A stretch of 14,613 nucleotides of DNA from a virus. Its lineage: Duplodnaviria > Heunggongvirae > Uroviricota > Caudoviricetes > Crassvirales. Positions 3,062 to 13,419 of the stretch are shown here, piece after piece. Where the stretch lies: IMG/VR virus record IMGVR_UViG_3300035698_016817, positions 64,001 through 78,613 of that record; one strand, written 5' to 3'. The translations under genes and the position numbers were made by a program. Under the pieces are notes generated by a model. The model was not told the origin of the DNA. It saw only the letters and a program-made list of their open reading frames with translations, and did not search any database. Numbering within the stretch: position 1 is the first letter of the stretch; each line of letters starts with the position of its first letter.

Positions 3062-5355
3062 TTTCTTGCAGTTGGAGTTGGTTTGTCACGCGTAATTTTC
3101 TCAGTAGCCTGATTGTGACGAATCGTTTCACTAAGCTGCCCTTCTTTTACCCGCGTCTCTCTGTTCTTGAAAGCGTTCTCCATTTGTGTTGGCCCTTCTG
3201 GAGCAGCTGTAGTTGTAGTTGCAATAGGCTCTGAATACTTAGAAGCGGCATTTGCATCTGCAATCTGAAGAAGCGTGTCATTGTGCTCTCTAGCGATCTT
3301 CTCCTTAGACTCTCGGTCTTTATCGTTGTCAGCAAATTCAGCTTCTCTTATCGCTTGTTCAGCTTTAGATTGTTCAGCCATAGCTTGTTGCTCTGCTTGT
3401 TGAGCTTGTTGTTGCTGTTGAGCTAATTCATCTTCAACTTTTTTGATTTTTTCTTTCATCAAAACGAAGTTTTCTTGATCAATAATCTCTAACGCTGTAG
3501 ACGCAGGGCCCCCTTTTTGAACGATTCCCTGAGCAACTTGAATTGCGTAATTGAGCTTCTCTTGATCTTTAGAAGAGTCGCTCATAAAGACTCCGAGGTC
3601 AGAGTAATTCCAAACTTCAGGATCAATATTCAAATACTCTCTAGTTCCGTCTGGCATAACGAAGCTGGTTTTCTTACCGTCTTTCCAGCAGTGCTTGCTT
3701 AAGTCGAGAAGGGCTTGCATGTCTCTTTGTTCGAAACCAGCAAACTTACGATACATGTCTTCAGTTGTATGTGAGCTTTGAACGATAGCTTGCTGTCCAG
3801 TAGCTTTCCCTTCGTAAGGAGACATTTCACCTAGCCTTTGGCGATTTACTCCAGCAACTCTGTGCCATTCTTCTTCAATACTTGCGAGAAGATTTAAGTA
3901 CATATCAATCGTTTTGATTGACAAATCCATTACTGTTTGGTGCTGAGGATTTAACCTGATTCCTTCTTTATTGTAATCTACCCAGGCTATTCCTGAGCCC
4001 TCGACCATATTCATGAATTTATCCATACTCCATTTCTTTGGAATAAGGTTGATGTCAAACTGAGCAATGATGTCTTTAGAACGAGCGATTGCCAATTCTA
4101 AACGGTATTTATACGTGTTGTAGTTTAGCTGATAAGGAATCCCTAGCATTACCGGGCTCACGTTAGCAGTGTTTATGTCAGAGTAACGTCTCCCGTTTAT
4201 CGGAAGCTTGTTCTTAGAAACGTTGTCAATTGAAGCTCTTTCGTATGCGTACGGCTGAACGTCTATACTAAAACCAGAATCGTTGTCTCCAATGTTAGTT
4301 CCTTCCCAGACTTTATTATCCCACAACCACTGAATTTTAGCTTCTAGTTCTTTTAACCATGGCTCTATTTTGTAGCCATCTTCAACCTCAAACATTTCTT
4401 CCGCTCCTGTCATTGGGTCGAGGTAAGATACAATCCCACGTCTCTCCATCCCTTGCCAGTAAACAGTCGTGACTTTTGTCAATCGATTACTTTGTCTGGA
4501 AGTTCTTGAATCTCTAAGAGAAGTAAATCCGTCAAAGTATTCTCCTTTTCCTGAATCAGAAAATATCTCGTCCATTTGATCGGTGGTCATTCTACTTCCC
4601 CACCTCTCTATTATCTGACTTGGAGTCATCCACCTAGTAATAACAGCCCAGTCCGCGTCTTCTACGTAATCTAATTCGGGGTCCAAGTCGTAATCAATAT
4701 CCATAGGGTTGAGCGGGTAGTAACTTACTTCGTTGTTTCTCAAAGTTCTCTCAGAGAAGCATTCTCCAGAGACCATAAAGTGGAACCAACATTTCTGCAG
4801 GTTCTCATGAACTCTTGCTTCTCTAATGATATAAGCCATCCCTTTTTGACCCAATACGGCGTGATTATCAACATAAGAACGGTTATGCATTTCTGCAGCT
4901 ACCTTAGGTTCTTGAGTCTCTTTTGACTCTTGTCCGGTTTCCATTCCAGCTTCATTCATGGCGTTAACCATGTCTTGTTCTATGGTTCCCAGAATGGAAG
5001 TGTTTAGCTCAGTTTCTTTTCTTGTGATGGTATCCTGGTTTGTGACAACCACGCTGTAATTGAAAGGCCTCTTAGCTTTTTCTCCTAATAAGTAATCGAT
5101 TACTGGCTTGATTAACGGGTAGTTCCGCATCTTAGAAGGGAAGAACTCTCTTTTCTTTCCGTAAGGTTTAAGTACGTAGTCGTAATCCGACGTATTAATT
5201 ACTCCGTTGTAATAATCGTAAAGCTTTTGAAGCCCTTCTCTTCTGCTTTGACCACGATCATCTATCAGCGAAATATACGCTGCCATGGTAGTGTCTTTAA
5301 ATTCTTTCCCTTTTCTAGAGATAGGAATTCTTTGATTGGGGATATTTTCGTGCAT
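3058..5355 (-). CDS. Portal protein, crAss-like
   Basis: 765 aa directly downstream of TerL. Motifs YDYYNG, YPLIKPVIDYLLGE, PMDIDYD, WHRVAGVNRQRLG and DLGVFMSDS resemble crAss-type portals as I recall them. Q-rich coiled-coil C-terminus. Confidence 0.85.
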   Translation of the reverse strand: MHENIPNQRIPISRKGKEFKDTTMAAYISLIDDRGQSRREGLQKLYDYYNGVINTSDYDYVLKPYGKKREFFPSKMRNYPLIKPVIDYLLGEKAKRPFNYSVVVTNQDTITRKETELNTSILGTIEQDMVNAMNEAGMETGQESKETQEPKVAAEMHNRSYVDNHAVLGQKGMAYIIREARVHENLQKCWFHFMVSGECFSERTLRNNEVSYYPLNPMDIDYDLDPELDYVEDADWAVITRWMTPSQIIERWGSRMTTDQMDEIFSDSGKGEYFDGFTSLRDSRTSRQSNRLTKVTTVYWQGMERRGIVSYLDPMTGAEEMFEVEDGYKIEPWLKELEAKIQWLWDNKVWEGTNIGDNDSGFSIDVQPYAYERASIDNVSKNKLPINGRRYSDINTANVSPVMLGIPYQLNYNTYKYRLELAIARSKDIIAQFDINLIPKKWSMDKFMNMVEGSGIAWVDYNKEGIRLNPQHQTVMDLSIKTIDMYLNLLASIEEEWHRVAGVNRQRLGEMSPYEGKATGQQAIVQSSHTTEDMYRKFAGFEQRDMQALLDLSKHCWKDGKKTSFVMPDGTREYLNIDPEVWNYSDLGVFMSDSSKDQEKLNYAIQVAQGIVQKGGPASTALEIIDQENFVLMKEKIKKVEDELAQQQQQAQQAEQQAMAEQSKAEQAIREAEFADNDKDRESKEKIAREHNDTLLQIADANAASKYSEPIATTTTAAPEGPTQMENAFKNRETRVKEGQLSETIRHNQATEKITRDKPTPTARK

Positions 5356-5359
5356 ATTA

Positions 5360-5367
5360 CAAATTTA
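5360..5367 (-). promoter_or_regulatory. Bacteroidota sigma-A -7 box TAAATTTG, 4 nt before the portal ATG (probable leaderless mRNA)
   Basis: Minus strand reads TAAATTTG-TAAT-ATG in the only sizeable intergenic gap of the packaging operon. Matches the TAnnTTTG consensus. Confidence 0.65.
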
Positions 5368-8195: not shown

Positions 8196-8439
8196 CTAAT
8201 CTTTCCCATTTAGGGTTTTTATTATCTGCGCATTGAGTTGTTTGCCACTTTCCTTTTGTAGGCATGTGGCAACCGCATAGCGTGCACCTTTCAGGGCCCT
8301 TAGCAAAAAAAGGGCATTCAAAACACAACTCCATTCTTTTTTTGTACTCTGTCGGGGTAACTGTTTTGGCTTTGTTTTTAACGTGCTTAACAAGTTCGTT
8401 TGCAAAAGCCCAAGCCAATTTTAAAGGTGTGTTCTTCAT
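8176..8439 (-). CDS. Small Cys-rich putative metal-binding protein
   Basis: CFEC-x9-CTLCGC-x11-C pattern ending in PKW. Start overlaps the upstream stop (ATGA). Confidence 0.7.
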   Translation of the reverse strand: MKNTPLKLAWAFANELVKHVKNKAKTVTPTEYKKRMELCFECPFFAKGPERCTLCGCHMPTKGKWQTTQCADNKNPKWERLDGVKRS

Positions 8440-8627
8440 TGCTTTATGTCTAATTGTCTGAGCACTCCGTTCTTGTCATAGATTGCGAATATAAGGGTTC
8501 TTCCATGTCCAAATATCTGAGTAATGGTTCCTTTTGCTTTGCTTCCGCTAGGATGCCCCATAAATGCGCACTTCCACGGACCGATGTTTTTGCAAAAGCT
8601 TTGATAAGCTGTATTCTCCTTTGTCAT
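8436..8627 (-). CDS. Hypothetical small protein; start uncertain (8627 or 8561)
   Basis: Fills the gap between neighbours and its stop overlaps the next ATG. It overlaps the upstream gene by 80 nt if started at 8627. Confidence 0.45.
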   Translation of the reverse strand: MTKENTAYQSFCKNIGPWKCAFMGHPSGSKAKGTITQIFGHGRTLIFAIYDKNGVLRQLDIKQ

Positions 8628-9425: not shown

Positions 9426-9686
9426 TTAAAATTTTAGACCGTCTGCGGTCGGTTCGATTTTTGAATTGCTTGGGTCGTAGCTGTTTGGGTAAGGGTTTGG
9501 TTCATTCAATCTCTTGAGATCCATTCCTAGCCACATAATAGCTTCCTGAAGTTTTGCGATTGAAATTCTTCTTTCTCTAGAACTAGGAAGAGCCTTTAGT
9601 TTTTGCAAATTTTCATCAAGAGAAACTCTGAGTTCCTTGTTTGATATAACATCTGCTTCGATACTTAAATTCATTTTGTCTGACAT
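9426..9686 (-). CDS. Acb2/Tad1-like helical-hairpin protein (candidate immune-signal sponge)
   Basis: 86 aa. PSSRERRISIAKLQEAIMWL matches, from memory, the SRE..A/I..(L/V)(E/Q)EA.MW helix of Tad1/Acb2-family proteins. Confidence 0.6.
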   Translation of the reverse strand: MSDKMNLSIEADVISNKELRVSLDENLQKLKALPSSRERRISIAKLQEAIMWLGMDLKRLNEPNPYPNSYDPSNSKIEPTADGLKF

Positions 9687-9705
9687 ATCTGATTTTGTTA
9701 TCCGA

Positions 9706-9713
9706 CAAATATA
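9706..9713 (-). promoter_or_regulatory. Bacteroidota -7 promoter box TATATTTG for the Acb2-like to terL operon
   Basis: Exact TAnnTTTG between tRNA-Tyr and the ATG at 9686. Confidence 0.65.
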
Positions 9714-9725
9714 CAGAAATGTTAT

Positions 9726-9810
9726 TGGTAGGACAGATAGGACTCGAACCTATACAGCGTTAACGTCGGGGTTACAACCCGGTGAGCTCATGCCAGTGCT
9801 CAGCTGTCCT
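9726..9810 (-). tRNA. trnY: tRNA-Tyr(GTA), long variable arm, CCA encoded (block A)
   Basis: Acceptor AGGACAG/CTGTCCT, anticodon loop TTGTAAC, T-arm ATAGG-TTCGAGT-CCTAT. Confidence 0.9.
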
Positions 9811-9815
9811 ATTTG

Positions 9816-9902
9816 CAGAGGATATAGGAATCGAACCCTGCCGCTGTTACACGACCGCACCAAGGTTCAAACCTGGCTGGTCACCATTGACCGCTATCCT
9901 CT
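9816..9902 (-). tRNA. trnS: tRNA-Ser(TGA) (block A)
   Basis: Acceptor AGAGGAT/ATCCTCT, G73, loop TTTGAAC, long variable arm. Confidence 0.88.
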
Positions 9903-9910
9903 ATACTCTG

Positions 9911-9993
9911 CAGAAAACGGAGGCCTTGATCCCCAGTCCAGAACGGACCCAGCTCCTTAGCAGGGAGCGCCTACCCAGGTAGGTTCATCTTCT
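9911..9993 (-). tRNA. trnS: tRNA-Ser(GCT), atypical T-loop (block A)
   Basis: GCTCC-CTGCTAA-GGAGC anticodon arm, long variable arm, T-loop ATCAAGG, G73. Confidence 0.8.
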
Positions 9994-9998
9994 GTGTG

Positions 9999-10069
9999 AG
10001 GTACAAGTTGGATTCGAACCAACGTGACAAGGTTTGCAATCTTGCCCCTATCCTCTCGGTCATTGTACC
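9999..10069 (-). tRNA. trnC: tRNA-Cys(GCA) (block A)
   Basis: Acceptor GGTACAA/TTGTACC, U73, loop TTGCAAA. Confidence 0.9.
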
Positions 10070-10074
10070 TTAAG

Positions 10075-10146
10075 ATCTCCGTACCGGAATCGAACCGATT
10101 TATCCTGCTTACAAAACAAGCGCATCGCCATCAATGCTTACAGAGA
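10075..10146 (-). tRNA. trnT: tRNA-Thr(TGT) (block A)
   Basis: Acceptor TCTCTGT/ACGGAGA, loop TTTGTAA, T-loop TTCGATT. Confidence 0.88.
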
Positions 10147-10153
10147 ATATGTG

Positions 10154-10228
10154 TGCCCAAGGATGGAATCGAACCATCGAAAAACAGAGTTTAAGTCTGT
10201 CGCGTAGTCCTGCGTCCGCCACAAGGGC
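10154..10228 (-). tRNA. trnL: tRNA-Leu(TAA), short variable loop (block A)
   Basis: ACAGA-CTTAAAC-TCTGT, 5-nt variable loop, A73. Confidence 0.85.
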
Positions 10229-10233
10229 CAGTG

Positions 10234-10308
10234 TACTCCCAGCAGGGATCGAACCTGCAAAACTCTCGGGCCTAAACCGAGCGACTTTACCTATTTGCCC
10301 ATAGGAGC
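10234..10308 (-). tRNA. trnL: tRNA-Leu(TAG), short variable loop (block A)
   Basis: CTCGG-TTTAGGC-CCGAG, 6-nt variable loop, A73. Confidence 0.85.
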
Positions 10309-10310
10309 TT

Positions 10311-10348
10311 AAAACAAAAAATCCCCGTCCAAATTAATGAGCGGGGAT
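10311..10348 (-). terminator. Intrinsic terminator / attenuator hairpin A, upstream of tRNA block A
   Basis: ATCCCCG...CGGGGAT stem followed by TTTTTGTTTT on the minus strand. Confidence 0.85.
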
Positions 10349-10374
10349 CCAAAATATTGGGTGTACCTACTCCG

Positions 10375-10425
10375 TCACATGGCTGTGTACGATAACGTGA
10401 GTAGGCAATAACTAATCATTTTCAT
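10375..10425 (-). CDS. Leader peptide A, MKMISYCLLTLSYTAM (16 aa), putative attenuator sensor
   Basis: ATG 4 nt after a TAnnTTTG box. Codons AGT TAT TGC CTA CTC ACG TTA TCG TAC ACA match the downstream Ser/Tyr/Cys/Leu/Thr tRNAs. A terminator follows. Confidence 0.8.
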   Translation of the reverse strand: MKMISYCLLTLSYTAM

Positions 10426-10429
10426 GACG

Positions 10430-10437
10430 CAAATATA
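10430..10437 (-). promoter_or_regulatory. Bacteroidota -7 box TATATTTG for leader A / tRNA block A
   Basis: TATATTTG-CGTC-ATG. Confidence 0.75.
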
Positions 10438-10448
10438 AACATAATAAG

Positions 10449-10522
10449 TGGGACAGGCAGGTTTCGAACCATGCTCCTCAAGTTTTTCAGACTAGCGCTT
10501 CTACCAAGTTAGCTTCTGACCC
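10449..10522 (-). tRNA. trnF: tRNA-Phe(GAA) (block B)
   Basis: Loop CTGAAAA, acceptor GGGTCAG/CTGTCCC with one T.T mismatch, A73. Confidence 0.85.
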
Positions 10523-10526
10523 ATTG

Positions 10527-10595
10527 CGCACCCCCAAGGAATCGAACCTTGTCCTACGGTTTTGGAGACCGTTTGGCCACCATGGCCTGAAGTAC
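10527..10595 (-). tRNA. trnW: tRNA-Trp(CCA) (block B)
   Basis: ACGGT-CTCCAAA-ACCGT, T-arm CAAGG-TTCGATT-CCTTG, G73. Confidence 0.85.
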
Positions 10596-10600
10596 GTTTG

Positions 10601-10674
10601 CTCTAGTGACGGGAGTCGAACCCGCTTTCTTCCGATTAACAGTCGGTTGCTTCCGCCATTTCAGCCTCACTAGA
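10601..10674 (-). tRNA. trnN: tRNA-Asn(GTT) (block B)
   Basis: Acceptor TCTAGTG/CACTAGA, loop CTGTTAA, G73. Confidence 0.9.
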
Positions 10675-10676
10675 TG

Positions 10677-10748
10677 TAGTTCCTCTCGGATTCGAACCGA
10701 GGACGCTTGACATGTAACACCAACGCTCTACCACTGAGCTAAGGAACT
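10677..10748 (-). tRNA. trnV: tRNA-Val(TAC) (block B)
   Basis: Acceptor AGTTCCT/AGGAACT, D-stem GCTC/GAGC, unusual loop GTTACAT. Confidence 0.85.
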
Positions 10749-10753
10749 ATGTG

Positions 10754-10825
10754 TGACCCCGGCGAGTACCGATCTCGCGGCCCTTCCCTTAAAAGGGGAA
10801 TGCTCCACCATTGAGCTACGAGGTC
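10754..10825 (-). tRNA. trnK: tRNA-Lys(TTT), atypical T-loop (block B)
   Basis: TTCCC-CTTTTAA-GGGAA, T-arm GCGAG-ATCGGTA-CTCGC. Confidence 0.85.
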
Positions 10826-10835
10826 TTTTAAACGC

Positions 10836-10866
10836 AAAAAATCCCGCTTACTTTCGTAAACAGGAT
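10836..10866 (-). terminator. Intrinsic terminator / attenuator hairpin B, upstream of tRNA block B
   Basis: ATCCTGTTTAC-GAAA-GTAAGCGGGAT (11 bp, GNRA loop) followed by a T-tract. Confidence 0.85.
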
Positions 10867-10893
10867 CAATCTTATTTGGTATAAGTTCTCTGT

Positions 10894-10941
10894 TTACGTT
10901 TCCGTATCCTTAAAGACCTTATTCCAATTAAGTGTTCTCAC
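10894..10941 (-). CDS. Leader peptide B, MRTLNWNKVFKDTET (15 aa, GTG start), putative attenuator sensor
   Basis: GTG 4 nt after TATGTTTG. The run AAT TGG AAT AAG GTC TTT AAG matches the Asn, Trp, Lys, Val and Phe tRNAs downstream. Confidence 0.78.
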   Translation of the reverse strand: MRTLNWNKVFKDTET

Positions 10942-10945
10942 GGTG

Positions 10946-10953
10946 CAAACATA
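10946..10953 (-). promoter_or_regulatory. Bacteroidota -7 box TATGTTTG for leader B / tRNA block B
   Basis: TATGTTTG-CACC-GTG. Confidence 0.72.
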
Positions 10954-10965
10954 AGCATTTTATTG

Positions 10966-11038
10966 AGACCCTACCAGGATTCAAACCTGGATACCTCGGG
11001 TAGAAGCCGAGTGCTCTGTTCAGTTGAGCTATAAGGCC
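10966..11038 (-). tRNA. trnR: tRNA-Arg(TCT) (block C)
   Basis: CTCGG-CTTCTAC-CCGAG, acceptor GGCCTTA/TAGGGTC. Confidence 0.88.
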
Positions 11039-11042
11039 GTTG

Positions 11043-11114
11043 TACGCAACAAAGGATTCGAACCTTCATCTCCGAGTCCGTAGCTCAGCGTGTTGTCCGT
11101 TACACTAATCGCGC
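11043..11114 (-). tRNA. trnR: tRNA-Arg(ACG) (block C)
   Basis: CTGAG-CTACGGA-CTCGG, D-stem GTGT/ACAC. Confidence 0.85.
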
Positions 11115-11118
11115 GTAT

Positions 11119-11196
11119 TGGGGTGTAAGAGGGGACTCGAACCCCCTAATGACCAACTCCACAGATTGGCGCTTCGACCACTTCAGCTTCCTACAC
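11119..11196 (-). tRNA. trnH: tRNA-His(GTG), CCA encoded, position -1 is T (block C)
   Basis: CCAAT-CTGTGGA-GTTGG, acceptor GTGTAGG/CTTACAC, C73. Confidence 0.88.
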
Positions 11197-11198
11197 AG

Positions 11199-11269
11199 TT
11201 CCCAGAGAAGGATTCGAACCTCCGTGACCGGCTTCAAAAACCAGCATCCTGCCGCTAGATGATCCGGGA
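11199..11269 (-). tRNA. trnQ: tRNA-Gln(TTG) (block C)
   Basis: CTGGT-TTTTGAA-GCCGG, acceptor TCCCGGA/TCTGGGA. Confidence 0.85.
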
Positions 11270-11275
11270 ATTAAG

Positions 11276-11347
11276 TACCGAGGGAAGGATTTGAACCTTC
11301 GACCGCTTACGTATCAGGCAAGTGCTCTACCGCTGAGCTACCCAGGT
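11276..11347 (-). tRNA. trnI: tRNA-Ile(GAT) (block C)
   Basis: CTTGC-CTGATAC-GTAAG, D-stem GCTC/GAGC, A73. Confidence 0.88.
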
Positions 11348-11355
11348 ATATTTGT

Positions 11356-11449
11356 TTAAGGTCTGCATGTCTCCCACGGTTCATTGGTGGCGGACGGCAT
11401 GCACTTAAAGAGCTTCTTTTTCCTTGAAACCTTTCACTCTTTACCTTAA
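11356..11449 (-). ncRNA. Unknown structured element (three-way junction) between tRNA-Ala and tRNA-Ile
   Basis: Closing stem TTAAGGT/ACCTTAA. Arms AAAGAGT/GCTCTTT and TGCATG/CATGCA, the latter with an inner CCAC/GTGG. Confidence 0.45.
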
Positions 11450-11450
11450 G

Positions 11451-11520
11451 TGGAGTACGAGGGAGTCGAACCCTAACATTTTCGTTGCAAACGAAATGAC
11501 CTGCCATCGGCATCGCCCCC
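11451..11520 (-). tRNA. trnA: tRNA-Ala(TGC), irregular acceptor stem (block C)
   Basis: TTTCG-TTTGCAA-CGAAA. G3:U70 and A73 retained; the lower acceptor stem is mismatched or bulged. Confidence 0.75.
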
Positions 11521-11532
11521 ATATTCTTTCTG

Positions 11533-11605
11533 TTGGCCCGGTGGGTCACGATCCCACTCTCTTCTTGTTATGAGCAAGATGCTTTCCCCGTTAAGCTACG
11601 CGCCG
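11533..11605 (-). tRNA. tRNA with CAT anticodon, probably Ile2 (lysidine) rather than Met (block C)
   Basis: TCTTG-CTCATAA-CAAGA, C1.A72 mismatch, atypical T-loop ATCGTGA. The Ile2 identity is inferred from the ATA codon in leader C. Confidence 0.75.
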
Positions 11606-11615
11606 ATATGCTATG

Positions 11616-11689
11616 TACCCCGTATGGGATTCGAACCCATGTCCTTCTAGTTGAAAACCAGACGTCCTGAGCCTCTAGACCAACGGGAC
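11616..11689 (-). tRNA. trnE: tRNA-Glu(TTC) (block C)
   Basis: TCTGG-TTTTCAA-CTAGA, T-arm ATGGG-TTCGAAT-CCCAT. Confidence 0.88.
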
Positions 11690-11695
11690 TTAATA

Positions 11696-11772
11696 TGGTT
11701 GCGGGACTGGGATTCGAACCCAGGACCTCTAGGTTATGAGTCTAGCGAGCTGGCCAACTGCTCTATCCCGCA
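11696..11772 (-). tRNA. trnM: tRNA-Met(CAT), fMet-like scaffold but without the three G:C anticodon-stem pairs; CCA encoded (block C)
   Basis: TGCGGGA/TCCCGCA, D-stem GAGC/GCTC, loop CTCATAA. Confidence 0.85.
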
Positions 11773-11779
11773 ATAAATG

Positions 11780-11852
11780 TGCAGTAGGTCAGACTCGAAC
11801 TGACAACCTAGTGCTTGGAAGGCACCCGCTCTGGCGTTGGAGCTACTACTGC
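11780..11852 (-). tRNA. trnG: tRNA-Gly(TCC) (block C)
   Basis: GGTGC-CTTCCAA-GCACT, acceptor GCAGTAG/CTACTGC, A73. Confidence 0.85.
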
Positions 11853-11857
11853 ATTAA

Positions 11858-11990
11858 AAAAGCATGGTGAGGTAAGTTGCCTCTCCTTATGATTGCGTTG
11901 TGGTTGTCTTAACGGTTGTCCTCTGGTGGACGGTCGTCCTTAAGTTAGGCCCTTGCCTTACAATACGCAATATATACTCACTCATGCTTT
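11858..11990 (-). ncRNA. Unknown rod-like structured element between tRNA-Asp and tRNA-Gly, containing a Thr-rich 32-codon ORF (11887-11985)
   Basis: Nested stems AAAGCATG/CATGCTTT, GTGAG/CTCAC, ATTGCGT/ACGCAAT, CTTAA/TTAAG and GGAC/GTCC. Confidence 0.5.
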
Positions 11991-11993
11991 AAG

Positions 11994-12066
11994 CGGTCCT
12001 AGACGGGATCGAACCGACTACCTTCCCGCAGACAACGGGCTATCCTACCATTAGGACCTTAGGACC
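11994..12066 (-). tRNA. trnD: tRNA-Asp(GTC) (block C)
   Basis: Acceptor GGTCCTA/TAGGACC, G73, loop TTGTCTG. Confidence 0.85.
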
Positions 12067-12073
12067 AATATTA

Positions 12074-12123
12074 AGAGCGAAGAGGTCATGAACCCCTTTA
12101 AGTGCTGCAGCACCGAACACTCT
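12074..12123 (-). ncRNA. 50-nt tRNA-like minihelix (acceptor-like stem plus T-arm-like hairpin; no anticodon arm)
   Basis: AGAGTG/CGCTCT, GTGC-TGCA-GCAC, AAGGGG-TTCATGA-CCTCTT. Confidence 0.4.
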
Positions 12124-12125
12124 AG

Positions 12126-12198
12126 TATGGGAAGCAGGGCTCGAACCTACGATCTCCGCGTCCCAAACGCGGCGCGATACCAACTTCGCTATTCCCAT
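12126..12198 (-). tRNA. trnP: tRNA-Pro(TGG), first tRNA of block C
   Basis: CCGCG-TTTGGGA-CGCGG, acceptor ATGGGAA/TTCCCAT, A73. Confidence 0.9.
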
Positions 12199-12203
12199 GT
12201 AAC

Positions 12204-12236
12204 AAAAAAGCCCCTCTCTATTCGAGAAGGGCTTTT
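12204..12236 (-). terminator. Intrinsic terminator / attenuator hairpin C, upstream of tRNA block C
   Basis: AAAAGCCCTTCTC-GAATA-GAGAGGGGCTTTTTT. Confidence 0.88.
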
Positions 12237-12257
12237 GATTTTTTAATGTCTATGTCT

Positions 12258-12344
12258 TTATTTTCTCGAATACATAGAGTTCCCTTTCGTCCCGCCATTG
12301 GCGCGATCCATAATCGGTTGTTCTATATGTCTTCCTGTATTCAT
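12258..12344 (-). CDS. Leader peptide C, MNTGRHIEQPIMDRANGGTKGNSMYSRK (28 aa), putative attenuator sensor
   Basis: Codons 4-15 (GGA AGA CAT ATA GAA CAA CCG ATT ATG GAT CGC GCC) map one-to-one onto the 12 tRNAs of block C. The last codons contain the antiterminator strand. Confidence 0.82.
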   Translation of the reverse strand: MNTGRHIEQPIMDRANGGTKGNSMYSRK

Positions 12345-12352
12345 TGAAGCCT

Positions 12353-12360
12353 CAAAGCTA
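12353..12360 (-). promoter_or_regulatory. Bacteroidota -7 box TAGCTTTG for leader C / tRNA block C
   Basis: TAnnTTTG 8 nt before the leader ATG, overlapping the upstream TAG stop. A TTG lies 20 nt upstream (-33-like). Confidence 0.6.
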
Positions 12361-12564
12361 GTCATCTTTTTTCTTTTCTACAACTATTTCAGGAAGTATT
12401 TCATCTTCTATTTCAGCTGTTGGTTTTCTAATCTTTTTTTCAAGAGCTATTTGAAAATCAATGAACCCTTCTTTTCCCGTGTAACAAGAGGGGCCTATCT
12501 TGTAAGACCCTGGCTTTATTTCCTTGTTCATTTTTTCTCTGGCACTCTTCTCCCACTTTTCCAT
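12358..12564 (-). CDS. Hypothetical 68-aa protein
   Basis: Protein-like composition (GSYKIGPSCYTGKEGFIDF). Stop lies just before leader C. Confidence 0.55.
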   Translation of the reverse strand: MEKWEKSAREKMNKEIKPGSYKIGPSCYTGKEGFIDFQIALEKKIRKPTAEIEDEILPEIVVEKKKDD

Positions 12565-12655
12565 TTTGATATTTTTTAAAGTTTTTGATTGCTTCTTTTT
12601 GAGCCATTATGGCTATGTATCCCGACATTCCTCTTTGTCTTGGGTTCTTTATCAT
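12458..12655 (-). CDS. Possible small basic protein coupled to the spanin-like gene; overlaps the next ORF by 107 nt
   Basis: ATGA overlap with the stop at 12652. The large overlap with 12358-12564 makes one of the two doubtful. Confidence 0.35.
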   Translation of the reverse strand: MIKNPRQRGMSGYIAIMAQKEAIKNFKKYQNGKVGEECQRKNEQGNKARVLQDRPLLLHGKRRVH

Positions 12656-13419
12656 TTGATGTTAAAGTTTTTGATGTATCCCACCCCTAAGGTCCACCCT
12701 GGTTGATTTTGAAATAAGTATCCTCCTTTAATTATGAACTGATTGTTTTTTAGGTCCATATAAGAAACCATCGCGGAGGTCTCCATGCCTCTAAAGTGTG
12801 GGCTTGACCCCATATTGTGATACTCCAGTTCTCCGCCCATCCCAATTTTTCTGTATGGACCAATAGGAATAGCGGTCTCAACTGTTCGTTCAGTAGATAT
12901 AATTGGTGCGATTCTTTTGTAAGAAAGCTTTGGCGCTCCTTCAAGCTTTCCTTGAGTCTTGAATTCGTAATAGATGACCATGGTTTCGTCTCTAACTGAA
13001 TCCATGTACGTACGAATGGTAGATAAATCTTTGATCCTTTCTTCGCATTCCGTAAGGCTAAATTCGTACCGTCTGAGTGATGATGACATGTCATCAATAC
13101 TATCAGAAGCATTAGAGCTTGGAACGGGGCGTTTCCATTTGTTAAGTACCGGTAACTCTTCGAAAACAGGTATTGGCTCAGAAACATTTAAAATTGTTAT
13201 TGCTGAATCAAATGTAGTTATTTCAATAACATTATCAGATATTGTATCTCCTCTTTCTGGGATCTGACATTTTCCGTTTATTGTTAAAGGCCCGTTGTGA
13301 GTCAGCTGACAGAATATGATATAAATCCCCATCAGTAAGATGATCATCTCCTTTGGATATCTTAACAAAAGAGCGAAGAAGGTTGATAGCCCTTGTTTTA
13401 TGAGGATCATTAAGTTCAT
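12652..13419 (-). CDS. Spanin-like lysis accessory protein
   Basis: ATGA-coupled to the endolysin stop. N-terminal hydrophobic segment (MIILLMGIYIIFC), central coiled coil, C-terminal Gly/aromatic amphipathic beta-strands (GWTLGVGY). Confidence 0.55.
   Translation of the reverse strand: MNLMILIKQGLSTFFALLLRYPKEMIILLMGIYIIFCQLTHNGPLTINGKCQIPERGDTISDNVIEITTFDSAITILNVSEPIPVFEELPVLNKWKRPVPSSNASDSIDDMSSSLRRYEFSLTECEERIKDLSTIRTYMDSVRDETMVIYYEFKTQGKLEGAPKLSYKRIAPIISTERTVETAIPIGPYRKIGMGGELEYHNMGSSPHFRGMETSAMVSYMDLKNNQFIIKGGYLFQNQPGWTLGVGYIKNFNIK

What the first reader, a model, noticed from the sequence alone, without database searches (positions are those of the whole stretch)
12204..12360. Attenuator C: 12 consecutive codons map one-to-one onto 12 downstream tRNAs
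GGA-Gly(TCC), AGA-Arg(TCT), CAT-His, ATA-Ile2(CAT), GAA-Glu, CAA-Gln, CCG-Pro(TGG), ATT-Ile(GAT), ATG-Met, GAT-Asp, CGC-Arg(ACG), GCC-Ala(TGC). Both Arg and both Ile isoacceptors are sampled separately, with no repeats. TATTCGAGAA (12272-12263, codons Y-S-R-K just before the stop) is a perfect 10-bp complement of TTCTCGAATA (12228-12219, terminator 5' arm plus loop), giving an antiterminator that a ribosome reaching the stop would mask. TGAATACA (12343-12336) can pair with TGTATTCG (12274-12267) as an anti-antiterminator.
Basis: partly seen in the sequence, partly recalled or inferred. Interest (0 to 1): 0.9.

Follow-up and report, generated by a model that had tools for sequence, protein, structure and literature searches.

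The report
Codon-matched leader attenuator before phage tRNAs
In an uncultured crAss-like phage from salt lakes, a tiny gene followed by a transcription stop signal sits in front of 12 tRNA genes and spells one codon for each of them, so the phage probably makes this tRNA set only when ribosomes read those codons slowly; I found no published account of such control for tRNA genes.

Summary
On the minus strand, a 28-codon ORF (12344-12258) contains 12 consecutive codons (12335-12300, GRHIEQPIMDRA). These match, one each, the 12 tRNA genes that follow a strong hairpin plus U6 terminator (12236-12204).

Under the phage's own codon usage such a window has P about 2e-9. It is the only one in the 78.6-kb genome. 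The two other terminator-bounded tRNA blocks have leaders of their own that match only their own block.

Unrelated Cellulophaga phages (Calle_1/phi38:1, phi4:1) group their tRNAs differently, and their leaders follow that grouping. Stenotrophomonas phage Moby shows one such unit. Three control arrays show none.

Best reading (about 0.75): a ribosome-mediated attenuator in which stalling at any sensor codon allows read-through into the tRNA block.

Weak points:
- The tRNA-Ala is sub-threshold, and GCC is not a normal codon for its UGC anticodon.
- Which CAT tRNA, if either, reads ATA is unproven.
- The 10-bp antiterminator is real and well placed, but it is no stronger than shuffled controls give.
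- The proposed anti-antiterminator is weak.
- There are no expression data.

This scan has noted the same class before on other phage DNA. I found no published description.

The parts
12353..12360 (-). Bacteroidota-type -7 promoter box TAGCTTTG, 8 nt upstream of the second ATG. Its TAG is also the stop codon of the upstream 68-aa ORF.
   Evidence: Three of the nine minus-strand TAnnTTTG matches in the window sit at the 5' edge of the three leaders. The box is conserved as TAACTTTG in L002. Promoter activity is inferred.
12258..12344 (-). Leader ORF C, 28 codons plus TAA. An in-frame upstream ATG at 12365 overlaps the end of the 68-aa ORF and gives a 35-codon form.
   Evidence: The frame and length are kept in L002 through an in-frame 3-nt indel.
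12300..12335 (-). Sensor run: 12 consecutive codons (GRHIEQPIMDRA), one for each tRNA of block C.
   Evidence: P = 1.8e-9 per window, and it is the only such window in the genome.
12263..12272 (-). Antiterminator strand TATTCGAGAA (codons 25-28, just before the stop).
12204..12236 (-). Intrinsic terminator: 9-bp GC-rich stem (13 bp with the A-U extension), loop GAATA, then T6. The 5' arm plus loop (12228-12219) is the partner of the antiterminator.
   Evidence: dG is -17 to -21 kcal/mol.
12249..12278 (-). Conserved small hairpin TCTATGT / ACATAGA that encloses the stop codon and the antiterminator strand.
   Evidence: Centroid structure. Both arms are identical in L002. Its role is unknown.
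10965..12198 (-). tRNA block C: Pro 12198-12125, Asp 12066-11993, Gly 11852-11779, CAT 11772-11696, Glu 11689-11615, CAT 11605-11532, weak Ala-TGC 11520-11452, Ile-GAT 11347-11275, Gln 11269-11198, His 11196-11119, Arg-ACG 11114-11042, Arg-TCT 11038-10965.
10840..10953 (-). Next unit (B): box TATGTTTG, a GTG-started 15-codon ORF with the run NWNKVFK, and a terminator. It precedes Lys, Val, Asn, Trp, Phe and bounds block C.
10316..10437 (-). Third unit (A): box TATATTTG, a 16-codon ORF with the run SYCLLTLSYT, and a terminator. It precedes Leu, Leu, Thr, Cys, Ser-GCT, Ser-TGA, Tyr.

Best explanation
Attenuator C is a ribosome-mediated (leader-peptide) transcription attenuator that gates the first 12 tRNA genes of the phage's 24-tRNA array.

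Proposed sequence of events:
1. Host RNA polymerase starts at a Bacteroidota-type promoter just upstream, or reads in from the upstream operon.
2. A ribosome translates the 28-codon leader.
3. If every codon is decoded promptly, the ribosome reaches the stop codon and covers the segment at 12272-12263. The hairpin plus U6 terminator then forms, and transcription stops 6 nt before tRNA-Pro.
4. If the ribosome stalls at any of the 12 sensor codons because the matching tRNA is scarce, uncharged or destroyed, that segment stays free. It pairs with the terminator's 5' arm and loop as these emerge, and the polymerase reads on into the tRNA block.

The result is negative feedback on tRNA supply, exerted block by block. 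The two downstream units do the same for their own blocks.

Shown here: the ORF, the codon-to-tRNA match and its statistics, the terminator, the complementary segment and its position, and the parallels in other phages.

Inferred: promoter activity, translation of the ORF, the switch itself, and the physiological signal.
For: (1) One-to-one codon-to-tRNA match. P = 1.8e-9 per window, and this is the only such window in 157,000. At the amino-acid level P = 6e-7, again unique.

(2) An unbiased scan finds exactly three gaps in the array that end in a hairpin plus T-run. Each holds a run matching its own block (12, 7 and 10 codons) and at most 2 codons of any other block.

(3) Covariation across phages.
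- Cellulophaga phages Calle_1/phi38:1 (Pervagoviridae) and phi4:1 (Lightbulbvirus) partition their tRNAs differently: {Ala Lys Ile Gly Met Asp Thr Val Arg Ile}, {Tyr Ser Ser Asn Trp Phe Cys}, {Pro Glu Gln His Leu Leu Arg}.
- Their three leaders follow that partition, with runs of 11, 16 and 14 codons in Calle_1 and a diagonal match matrix.
- Some of these tRNAs are 82-84% identical to the window's.
- Stenotrophomonas phage Moby has one unit covering 14 of 15 amino acids of its block (P = 6.5e-6 per window).
- The arrays of Bacillus phage Deep Blue, coliphage JS98 and Gordonia phage GodonK show nothing comparable.

(4) The anatomy is that of an attenuator.
- A -7 box TAnnTTTG lies at the 5' edge of each leader: 3 of the 9 minus-strand matches fall in about 420 nt.
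- The same box placed 4 nt before the ATG serves the portal gene.
- Almost no gene of this phage has a Shine-Dalgarno motif, so its absence before the leaders is normal.
- The terminator ends 6 nt before the first tRNA, which leaves no room for another promoter.

(5) The antiterminator.
- The best duplex with the terminator arm lies at ORF nt 72-83. That is inside the footprint of a ribosome at the stop (nt 70-97) and outside the footprint of one stalled at codons 4-15.
- It sequesters the loop, giving a refolding barrier of about 13.9 kcal/mol, against 4.7 for the competing partner.
- Across six independent units, complementarity to the terminator arm beats shuffles (p = 0.18, 0.008, 0.5, 0.012, 0.04, 0.044).
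- Constrained folds of units B, A, Calle_1 and Calle_2 switch as the model predicts.

(6) The relative L002 (TerL 71% identical).
- It keeps the leader, with 9 of 12 sensor codons identical at all three positions.
- The following spacer has diverged but keeps its length and frame.
- A U-A pair of the antiterminator is replaced by G-C through changes on both strands.
Against: - No expression, end-mapping or ribosome data exist for this phage.
- For unit C alone, the 10-bp helix is no stronger than 18% of dinucleotide shuffles, because the leader is purine-rich and the terminator arm pyrimidine-rich.
- Equilibrium constrained folds for C do not separate the two states. With a ribosome at the stop, another segment (12289-12282) can still pair with the terminator arm.
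- The proposed anti-antiterminator is weak and not conserved.
- Each tRNA is sampled by a single codon, which may give only weak stalling unless the tRNA is nearly absent.
- tRNA-Ala is marginal and GCC is a poor match to UGC. The ATA-to-CAT assignment is unproven: one CAT tRNA looks initiator-derived (A11:U24) and the other has a C1xA72 mismatch.
- L002 keeps the full leader although it retains only tRNA-Pro behind it. This is explained by a visible recent deletion, but it shows that leader and block can come uncoupled.
- Codons 16-20 (N G G T K) also lie in the zone where stalling would induce read-through, and they include codons of other blocks.
Confidence: 0.75

Rival explanations
1. The same attenuator hardware is present, but the physiological signal is amino-acid starvation (uncharged tRNA) or general translational slowdown. 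It is not loss or shortage of particular tRNAs. The element is a multivalent starvation sensor that happens to sit before tRNA genes.
For: A stalled ribosome cannot tell a missing tRNA from an uncharged one. Classical multivalent leaders (ilvL, thrL) work this way (established knowledge). The sensor of unit C covers 10 amino acids.
Against: - Making more tRNA does not relieve amino-acid starvation.
- The leaders sample isoacceptor families separately: AGA and CGC for Arg, ATA and ATT for Ile, AGT and TCG for Ser, CTA and TTA for Leu.
- The leaders follow the block partition rather than any metabolic grouping, and they do so in phages with different partitions.
- These points fit sensing at the tRNA level.
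Confidence: 0.12
2. The codon-to-tRNA match is real and selected, but the ORF does not switch termination. For example, translation of the mini-ORF could protect or process the precursor or time its decay. The hairpin plus U-run could be a fixed partial terminator that sets the ratio between blocks.
For: For unit C the alternative pairing is not statistically exceptional, and equilibrium folds do not discriminate the two states. Terminators inside an array would create polarity on their own.
Against: - A fixed terminator needs no codon-matched ORF in front of it.
- In most units the best partner of the terminator arm lies within reach of a terminating ribosome, and constrained folds switch in four of six units.
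- There is a compensatory change in L002.
- No known mechanism links such an ORF to tRNA processing.
Confidence: 0.1
3. Chance: an accidental ORF lies next to the ordinary terminator of the upstream gene.
For: The run of 12 block-C amino acids alone is not rare, because block C covers half of all codons (run-only E about 0.1).
Against: - The one-to-one coverage has P = 1.8e-9 and is unique in the genome.
- Two further units in the same array and units in three other phage lineages show the same rule.
- The terminator lies downstream of a promoter-like box and 6 nt before a tRNA.
Confidence: 0.01
4. The 28-residue peptide itself is the functional product, for example a small regulatory or membrane peptide.
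For: Comparable mini-ORFs are annotated as hypothetical proteins in Cellulophaga phages.
Against: - Leaders of different units and phages share no sequence, only the rule that they list their block's amino acids.
- In L002 the sensor is conserved at synonymous positions while the rest of the peptide diverges.
Confidence: 0.02

Closest known systems
Multivalent leader-peptide attenuators of enterobacterial amino-acid operons (ilvGMEDA leader sensing Ile/Leu/Val; thr leader sensing Thr/Ile)
   Same: A promoter, a short ORF with regulatory codons for several amino acids, an intrinsic terminator, and an alternative pairing that a ribosome at the end of the ORF would mask. Stalling is expected to give read-through.
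   Different: - The controlled genes are tRNAs, not biosynthetic enzymes.
- There is one codon per tRNA species instead of tandem repeats, and the codons cover 10 amino acids and 12 anticodons.
- There is no Shine-Dalgarno motif, and the 5' leader is very short or absent.
- There is no sequence relationship: Rfam Thr_leader scores 23.5 bits against 55, and Phe_leader 21 against 55.
trpL, hisL, leuL and pheL attenuators, and the Bacteroid-trp leader motif of Bacteroidota (Rfam)
   Same: The same class of switch. Bacteroid-trp shows, from established knowledge, that leader-peptide attenuation is used in the presumed host phylum.
   Different: - Those sense a single amino acid.
- Their strong 1:2 anti-antiterminator is not evident in unit C (-3.9 kcal/mol).
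- No Rfam hit reaches threshold.
T-box riboswitches
   Same: They report on the state of a specific tRNA through a terminator/antiterminator choice.
   Different: - A T-box binds uncharged tRNA directly, without a ribosome, and controls synthetase or amino-acid genes.
- Here there is no specifier loop or T-box sequence, and Rfam gives no match.
- Sensing here would be by translation.
Phage tRNA clusters studied so far (the T4 tRNA region; T4-like JS98, used here as a control)
   Same: Clustered phage tRNA genes transcribed as precursors, with small structured RNAs between them.
   Different: No leader ORF plus terminator unit was found in the JS98, Deep Blue or GodonK arrays with the same scan. 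I found no such control described in the literature.
Codon-matched leaders before tRNA blocks in other phages
   Same: The architecture and the rule are identical: the leader lists the amino acids and anticodons of the block behind its terminator. TAnnTTTG plus 4 nt plus a start codon recurs in the Bacteroidota phages.
   Different: - The leaders are not homologous in sequence.
- The tRNA partition differs.
- Unit C is the largest (12 tRNAs) and the only one I saw that is a strict one-codon-per-tRNA list.

Membership tests
Ribosome-mediated leader-peptide transcription attenuators (functional class) | A short translatable ORF between a promoter and the first controlled gene | tested here: met
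   ORF 12344-12258 lies downstream of the box at 12360-12353 and upstream of tRNA-Pro at 12198. Translation itself has not been shown.
Ribosome-mediated leader-peptide transcription attenuators (functional class) | Regulatory codons in the ORF that correspond to what the controlled genes supply | tested here: met
   Twelve codons match twelve tRNAs. P = 1.8e-9, and the window is unique in the genome.
Ribosome-mediated leader-peptide transcription attenuators (functional class) | An intrinsic terminator immediately upstream of the controlled genes | tested here: met
   Hairpin of -17 to -21 kcal/mol plus U6, ending 6 nt before tRNA-Pro.
Ribosome-mediated leader-peptide transcription attenuators (functional class) | A mutually exclusive antiterminator that a ribosome at the stop codon masks and a ribosome at the regulatory codons leaves free | tested here: inconclusive
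   - The geometry is met (ORF nt 72-83 against footprints 70-97 and up to nt 55).
- The refolding barrier is high, and there is one compensatory change in L002.
- The energy is not above shuffles (p = 0.18), and a competing partner exists.
Ribosome-mediated leader-peptide transcription attenuators (functional class) | An anti-antiterminator (1:2) or pause hairpin that enforces termination without translation | tested here: inconclusive
   The proposed helix is -3.9 kcal/mol across a 61-nt loop and is not conserved in L002. Without a ribosome, the truncated transcript folds into the antiterminator.
Ribosome-mediated leader-peptide transcription attenuators (functional class) | Stall-dependent read-through demonstrated | not testable with these tools
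   This needs in vitro coupled transcription-translation or reporters.
Rfam leader families (Thr_leader RF00506, Phe_leader RF01859 and relatives) | A covariance-model score at or above the gathering threshold | tested here: not met
   23.5 and 21 bits against thresholds of 55. Nothing reaches the gathering threshold.
T-box riboswitch | A match to the T-box model (specifier loop, T-box sequence) | tested here: not met
   No T-box match even at E up to 10 in 9600-12700.
Codon-matched leader attenuators of phage tRNA arrays (class seen in this scan; I found no publication) | Promoter, mini-ORF, terminator and tRNA block in that order, with the mini-ORF holding an uninterrupted run of codons for the block's tRNAs and not for those of other blocks | tested here: met
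   The same rule holds in Calle_1/phi38:1, phi4:1 and Moby.

The most novel reading that the evidence does not exclude
Phages of several unrelated lineages carry a block-wise tRNA-supply homeostat. Each tRNA block is switched on by a translated test sequence that lists the block's anticodons. In unit C the start codon may in addition report on an initiator-like tRNA, because without translation the antiterminator is the default fold. With one codon per tRNA, the device would respond mainly to near-absence of a tRNA. That makes it a sensor of host tRNA destruction (anticodon nucleases, phage-induced host RNA decay) and so a regulated counter-defence, rather than a starvation response.
Probability: 0.35. 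Interest if true: 0.9.

Novelty: new variant of a known kind. Interest (0 to 1): 0.85.

Why it matters
How phages regulate their tRNA genes is essentially unknown. Why they carry them is still debated: codon bias, host shut-off, or escape from tRNA-cleaving defences.

A leader that lists the anticodons behind it would show that phages measure decoding capacity directly and top it up on demand, block by block. This extends the classical trp/his attenuation logic from amino-acid supply to tRNA supply.

It gives directly testable predictions, namely block-specific induction when one tRNA is depleted. One carrier, Cellulophaga phage phi38:1, is a cultured system. The leaders could also serve as natural reporters of tRNA-targeting defence activity, and as an annotation aid: a leader predicts which odd or sub-threshold tRNA genes are real.

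Tried and rejected
- Megablast of the region against GenBank phages gave no match.
- TerL-based searches of IMG/VR returned 84 related loci. Only L002 shares the leader, and the others have no tRNA array within 10 kb.
- An exact-pattern scan of IMG/VR found only L002's contig.
- A metagenome scan with a degenerate leader pattern found only the same phage again (L088) and two unrelated chance hits.
- Sequencing runs: no RNA holder is listed. Contigs of four salt-lake DNA runs are identical to the window across the leader, so they give no population variation to analyse.
- I tried to classify the two CAT tRNAs by similarity to annotated E. coli tRNAs. The result was uninformative: 7 genomes with a 'tRNA-Met' hit for one and no hit for the other. 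Alignment with Cellulophaga-phage CAT and TAT tRNAs showed only that the first CAT tRNA belongs to an initiator-like type.
- Rfam gave only sub-threshold hits to leader families, driven by the terminator hairpin.
- Equilibrium folding with ribosome masks for unit C does not discriminate stalled from terminating ribosomes. I therefore do not claim that the switch is demonstrated by folding.
- Six literature searches and one paper on the phi38:1 transcriptome gave no description of leader peptides or attenuators before phage tRNA genes.
- I considered whether the terminators simply end the preceding block's transcript. I rejected this because each lies downstream of the next unit's promoter-like box and ORF, and only 6-9 nt before the next tRNA.

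Full report
**What the window is.** The window is the last 14.6 kb of a 78.6-kb IMG/VR viral contig with 39.7% G+C. Its large terminase and portal match crAss-like phages of Bacteroidota at 35-40% identity. Contigs identical to it occur in several salt-lake metagenomes. All tRNA genes of the genome lie in one minus-strand array at 12198-9726. ARAGORN at default settings finds 21. Rfam adds Phe-GAA. A slightly relaxed ARAGORN threshold adds Ala-TGC, Phe-GAA and Ser-GCT without any spurious calls, giving 24 tRNAs for all 20 amino acids.

**The observation.**
- A 28-codon ORF runs from 12344 to 12258. It has 35 codons if read from an in-frame ATG at 12365 that overlaps the end of the upstream 68-aa ORF.
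- Codons 4-15 (12335-12300) read GRHIEQPIMDRA.
- A 9-bp GC-rich hairpin (13 bp with its A-U extension) and a U6 run follow at 12236-12204.
- tRNA-Pro starts at 12198.
- Twelve tRNA genes lie between this terminator and the next one: Pro, Asp, Gly, CAT, Glu, CAT, Ala, Ile-GAT, Gln, His, Arg-ACG, Arg-TCT. The 12 codons hit each anticodon once.

**Is it more than chance?** I used the codon usage of 52 long ORFs of the phage.
- Twelve random codons map one-to-one onto these 12 tRNAs with P = 1.8e-9 (2.3e-10 with strict wobble rules).
- Among about 157,000 windows on both strands of the genome, only this one qualifies.
- The amino-acid-level version does not depend on any doubtful tRNA assignment. 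It asks that all 12 codons fall within the block's 10 amino acids and that all 10 are present. It has P = 6e-7 and is again unique.
- The bare run length is not impressive, because block C covers half of all codons. The significant feature is the complete, non-redundant coverage.

**The two neighbouring units.** A scan that knows nothing about the ORFs finds exactly three gaps in the array that end in a hairpin plus T-run.
- The second gap holds NWNKVFK before Lys, Val, Asn, Trp, Phe.
- The third holds SYCLLTLSYT before Leu, Leu, Thr, Cys, Ser, Ser, Tyr.
- The three blocks partition the 20 amino acids without overlap.
- The matrix of leader against block (longest run) is 12/1/2, 1/7/2 and 2/1/10.
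- Each leader starts just downstream of a TAnnTTTG box, the -7 element of Bacteroidota promoters (established knowledge). Three of the nine minus-strand matches in the window fall at these three spots.
- The same box placed 4 nt before the ATG precedes the portal gene.
- Only 1 of 52 long ORFs has a Shine-Dalgarno-like motif, so its absence before the leaders is expected.

**Related and unrelated phages.**
- Close relatives are rare. Of 84 IMG/VR loci with a related terminase, only L002 (71% identity) has the leader. A metagenome scan found only the same phage again.
- L002 has the homologous box, ORF, terminator and tRNA-Pro. After that comes a hybrid remnant: the 5' part of the first CAT tRNA joined to the 3' part of tRNA-Tyr. 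The array was therefore deleted there.
- In L002, nine of the 12 sensor codons are identical at all three positions. The spacer after them has diverged but keeps its length and frame.
- The decisive comparison is with unrelated phages. Cellulophaga phages Calle_1 and phi38:1 (Pervagoviridae) have three units. Each has a repeated promoter, a mini-ORF, a terminator and a tRNA block. phi4:1 (Lightbulbvirus) has three units of mini-ORF, terminator and block.
- Their partition differs from the window's. In Calle_1, the leader before Ala, Lys, Ile, Gly, Met, Asp, Thr, Val, Arg-TCT, Ile-TAT has an 11-codon run from that set. The leader before Tyr, Ser, Ser, Asn, Trp, Phe, Cys has a 16-codon run. The leader before Pro, Glu, Gln, His, Leu, Leu, Arg-ACG has a 14-codon run. 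The match matrix is again diagonal.
- Some of these tRNAs are 82-84% identical to the window's. Related tRNAs therefore sit in differently composed blocks, and the leaders have followed.
- In a small control set, Stenotrophomonas phage Moby unexpectedly showed one unit covering 14 of 15 amino acids of its block (P = 6.5e-6 per window). Bacillus phage Deep Blue, coliphage JS98 and Gordonia phage GodonK showed none.

**How it probably works.** The order is promoter, short ORF with regulatory codons, terminator, controlled genes. That is the anatomy of a classical leader-peptide attenuator.
- A ribosome with the stop codon in its A site would cover about nt 70-97 and mask this segment. A ribosome stalled at codons 4-15 reaches at most nt 55 and leaves it free.
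- This helix ties up the terminator loop. The estimated barrier for refolding into the terminator is 13.9 kcal/mol. For a competing partner (12289-12282) that leaves the loop free, it is 4.7 kcal/mol.
- In L002 the pairing is kept in a different form, including a U-A to G-C double change that involves a terminator loop base.
- Without any ribosome, the truncated transcript folds into the antiterminator. In unit C, termination may therefore require complete translation. That would also let a failure of initiation induce the block.

**Limits of the structural case.**
- For unit C alone, the antiterminator energy is matched by 18% of dinucleotide shuffles. The reason is that the leader is purine-rich and the terminator arm pyrimidine-rich.
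- Equilibrium folds with ribosome masks do not separate the two states for C. They do for units B and A and for two of the three Calle_1 units.
- Over six independent units, the complementarity is better than shuffles overall.
A small hairpin, TCTATGT/ACATAGA, around the stop codon is conserved, but I cannot assign it a role.

**Limits of the mapping.**
- The Ala-TGC gene scores below the thresholds of both tools. It has a G.A mismatch and two G.U pairs in the acceptor stem, a 3-bp D stem and no G3:U70.
- GCC is read by a UGC anticodon only under relaxed wobble.
- Of the two CAT tRNAs, the first has the initiator-type A11:U24 pair and resembles tRNAs annotated fMet or Met in other phages. The second has a C1xA72 mismatch. 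I could not show that either is the lysidine Ile2 species.
- Ten assignments are therefore solid and two are open.

**Comparison with what is known.**
- Functionally this is the trp/his/ilv type of attenuation. The closest match is the multivalent ilv and thr leaders. Leader-peptide attenuators are known in Bacteroidota (the Bacteroid-trp motif).
- It is not a member of any Rfam leader family or of the T-box family.
- It differs in what it controls (tRNA genes), in using one codon per tRNA species, and in working without a Shine-Dalgarno motif on a very short or absent 5' leader.
- Six literature searches and a reading of the phi38:1 transcriptome paper found no description of such control.
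- Earlier notes of this scan describe the same class on other phage genomes and on this window. I treated them as leads and tested the claim independently on the Cellulophaga phages and on Moby.

**Verdict.** The attenuator reading is the best explanation (about 0.75). The exact RNA switch of unit C, two tRNA identities and all functional steps remain to be shown.

Noticed in passing
window 11853-11992 (minus strand); L091 about 8431-8576: The 140-nt spacer between tRNA-Asp and tRNA-Gly folds into a multibranch structure closed by a 13-bp stem followed by U6 (-36.9 kcal/mol, z = -3.6). It carries a 21-nt motif (AGGACAAC.GTT.AGACAACCA) that is shared with the Thr-Val spacer of Cellulophaga phage phi4:1. 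There is no Rfam match. It also holds a Thr-rich 32-codon ORF. It may be a conserved small RNA inside phage tRNA arrays.
   Followed up: partly
L002 7702-7760 (IMGVR_UViG_3300020048_000077): The relative lost the array through a deletion. The deletion joins the first 19 nt region of the CAT tRNA to the 3' end of tRNA-Tyr. Leader C, its terminator and tRNA-Pro are left in place, and the whole 89-kb genome has only 3 tRNAs.
   Followed up: yes
L092 9370-9523 (Stenotrophomonas phage Moby, NC_048802 about 80470-80624): A 26-codon ORF plus an annotated terminator precedes tRNA-Trp. A 20-codon run in it covers 14 of the 15 amino acids of the 16-tRNA block behind it (P = 6.5e-6 per window). The architecture may therefore extend to phages of Proteobacteria.
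   Followed up: partly
window 11696-11772 and 11532-11605 (minus strand): There are two CAT-anticodon tRNAs. The first has U1-A72, A11:U24 and an A31xC39 mismatch, and it resembles phage tRNAs annotated fMet. The second has C1xA72 and G5xG68 mismatches. Their roles (initiator, elongator Met or Ile2) are unresolved.
   Followed up: partly
window 5360-5367 and the portal start at 5355; genome-wide: TAAATTTG lies 4 nt before the portal ATG, with the same spacing as in leaders A and B. Only 1 of 52 long ORFs has a Shine-Dalgarno-like motif. This suggests leaderless or near-leaderless late mRNAs in this phage.
   Followed up: partly
window 9426-9686 (minus strand): The 86-aa ORF right after the array has a weak, sub-threshold Pfam hit to the Acb2/Tad1 hairpin domain of anti-CBASS/anti-Thoeris sponges (E = 2e-4, 21.9 bits against a cut-off of 27).
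   Followed up: no
window 12358-12564 (minus strand) versus L002 7764-8081: The homologue of the 68-aa ORF upstream of leader C lies downstream of the tRNA region in L002, behind the post-array promoter box. The array region has therefore been rearranged between the two phages.
   Followed up: no
L087 4320-4390; L086 4302-4372: Calle_1 and phi38:1 carry a tRNA-Ile with anticodon TAT. It shares its acceptor stem with their Ile-GAT tRNA and is matched by an ATA codon in leader 1. phi4:1 has a CAT tRNA at the same position in the array.
   Followed up: partly
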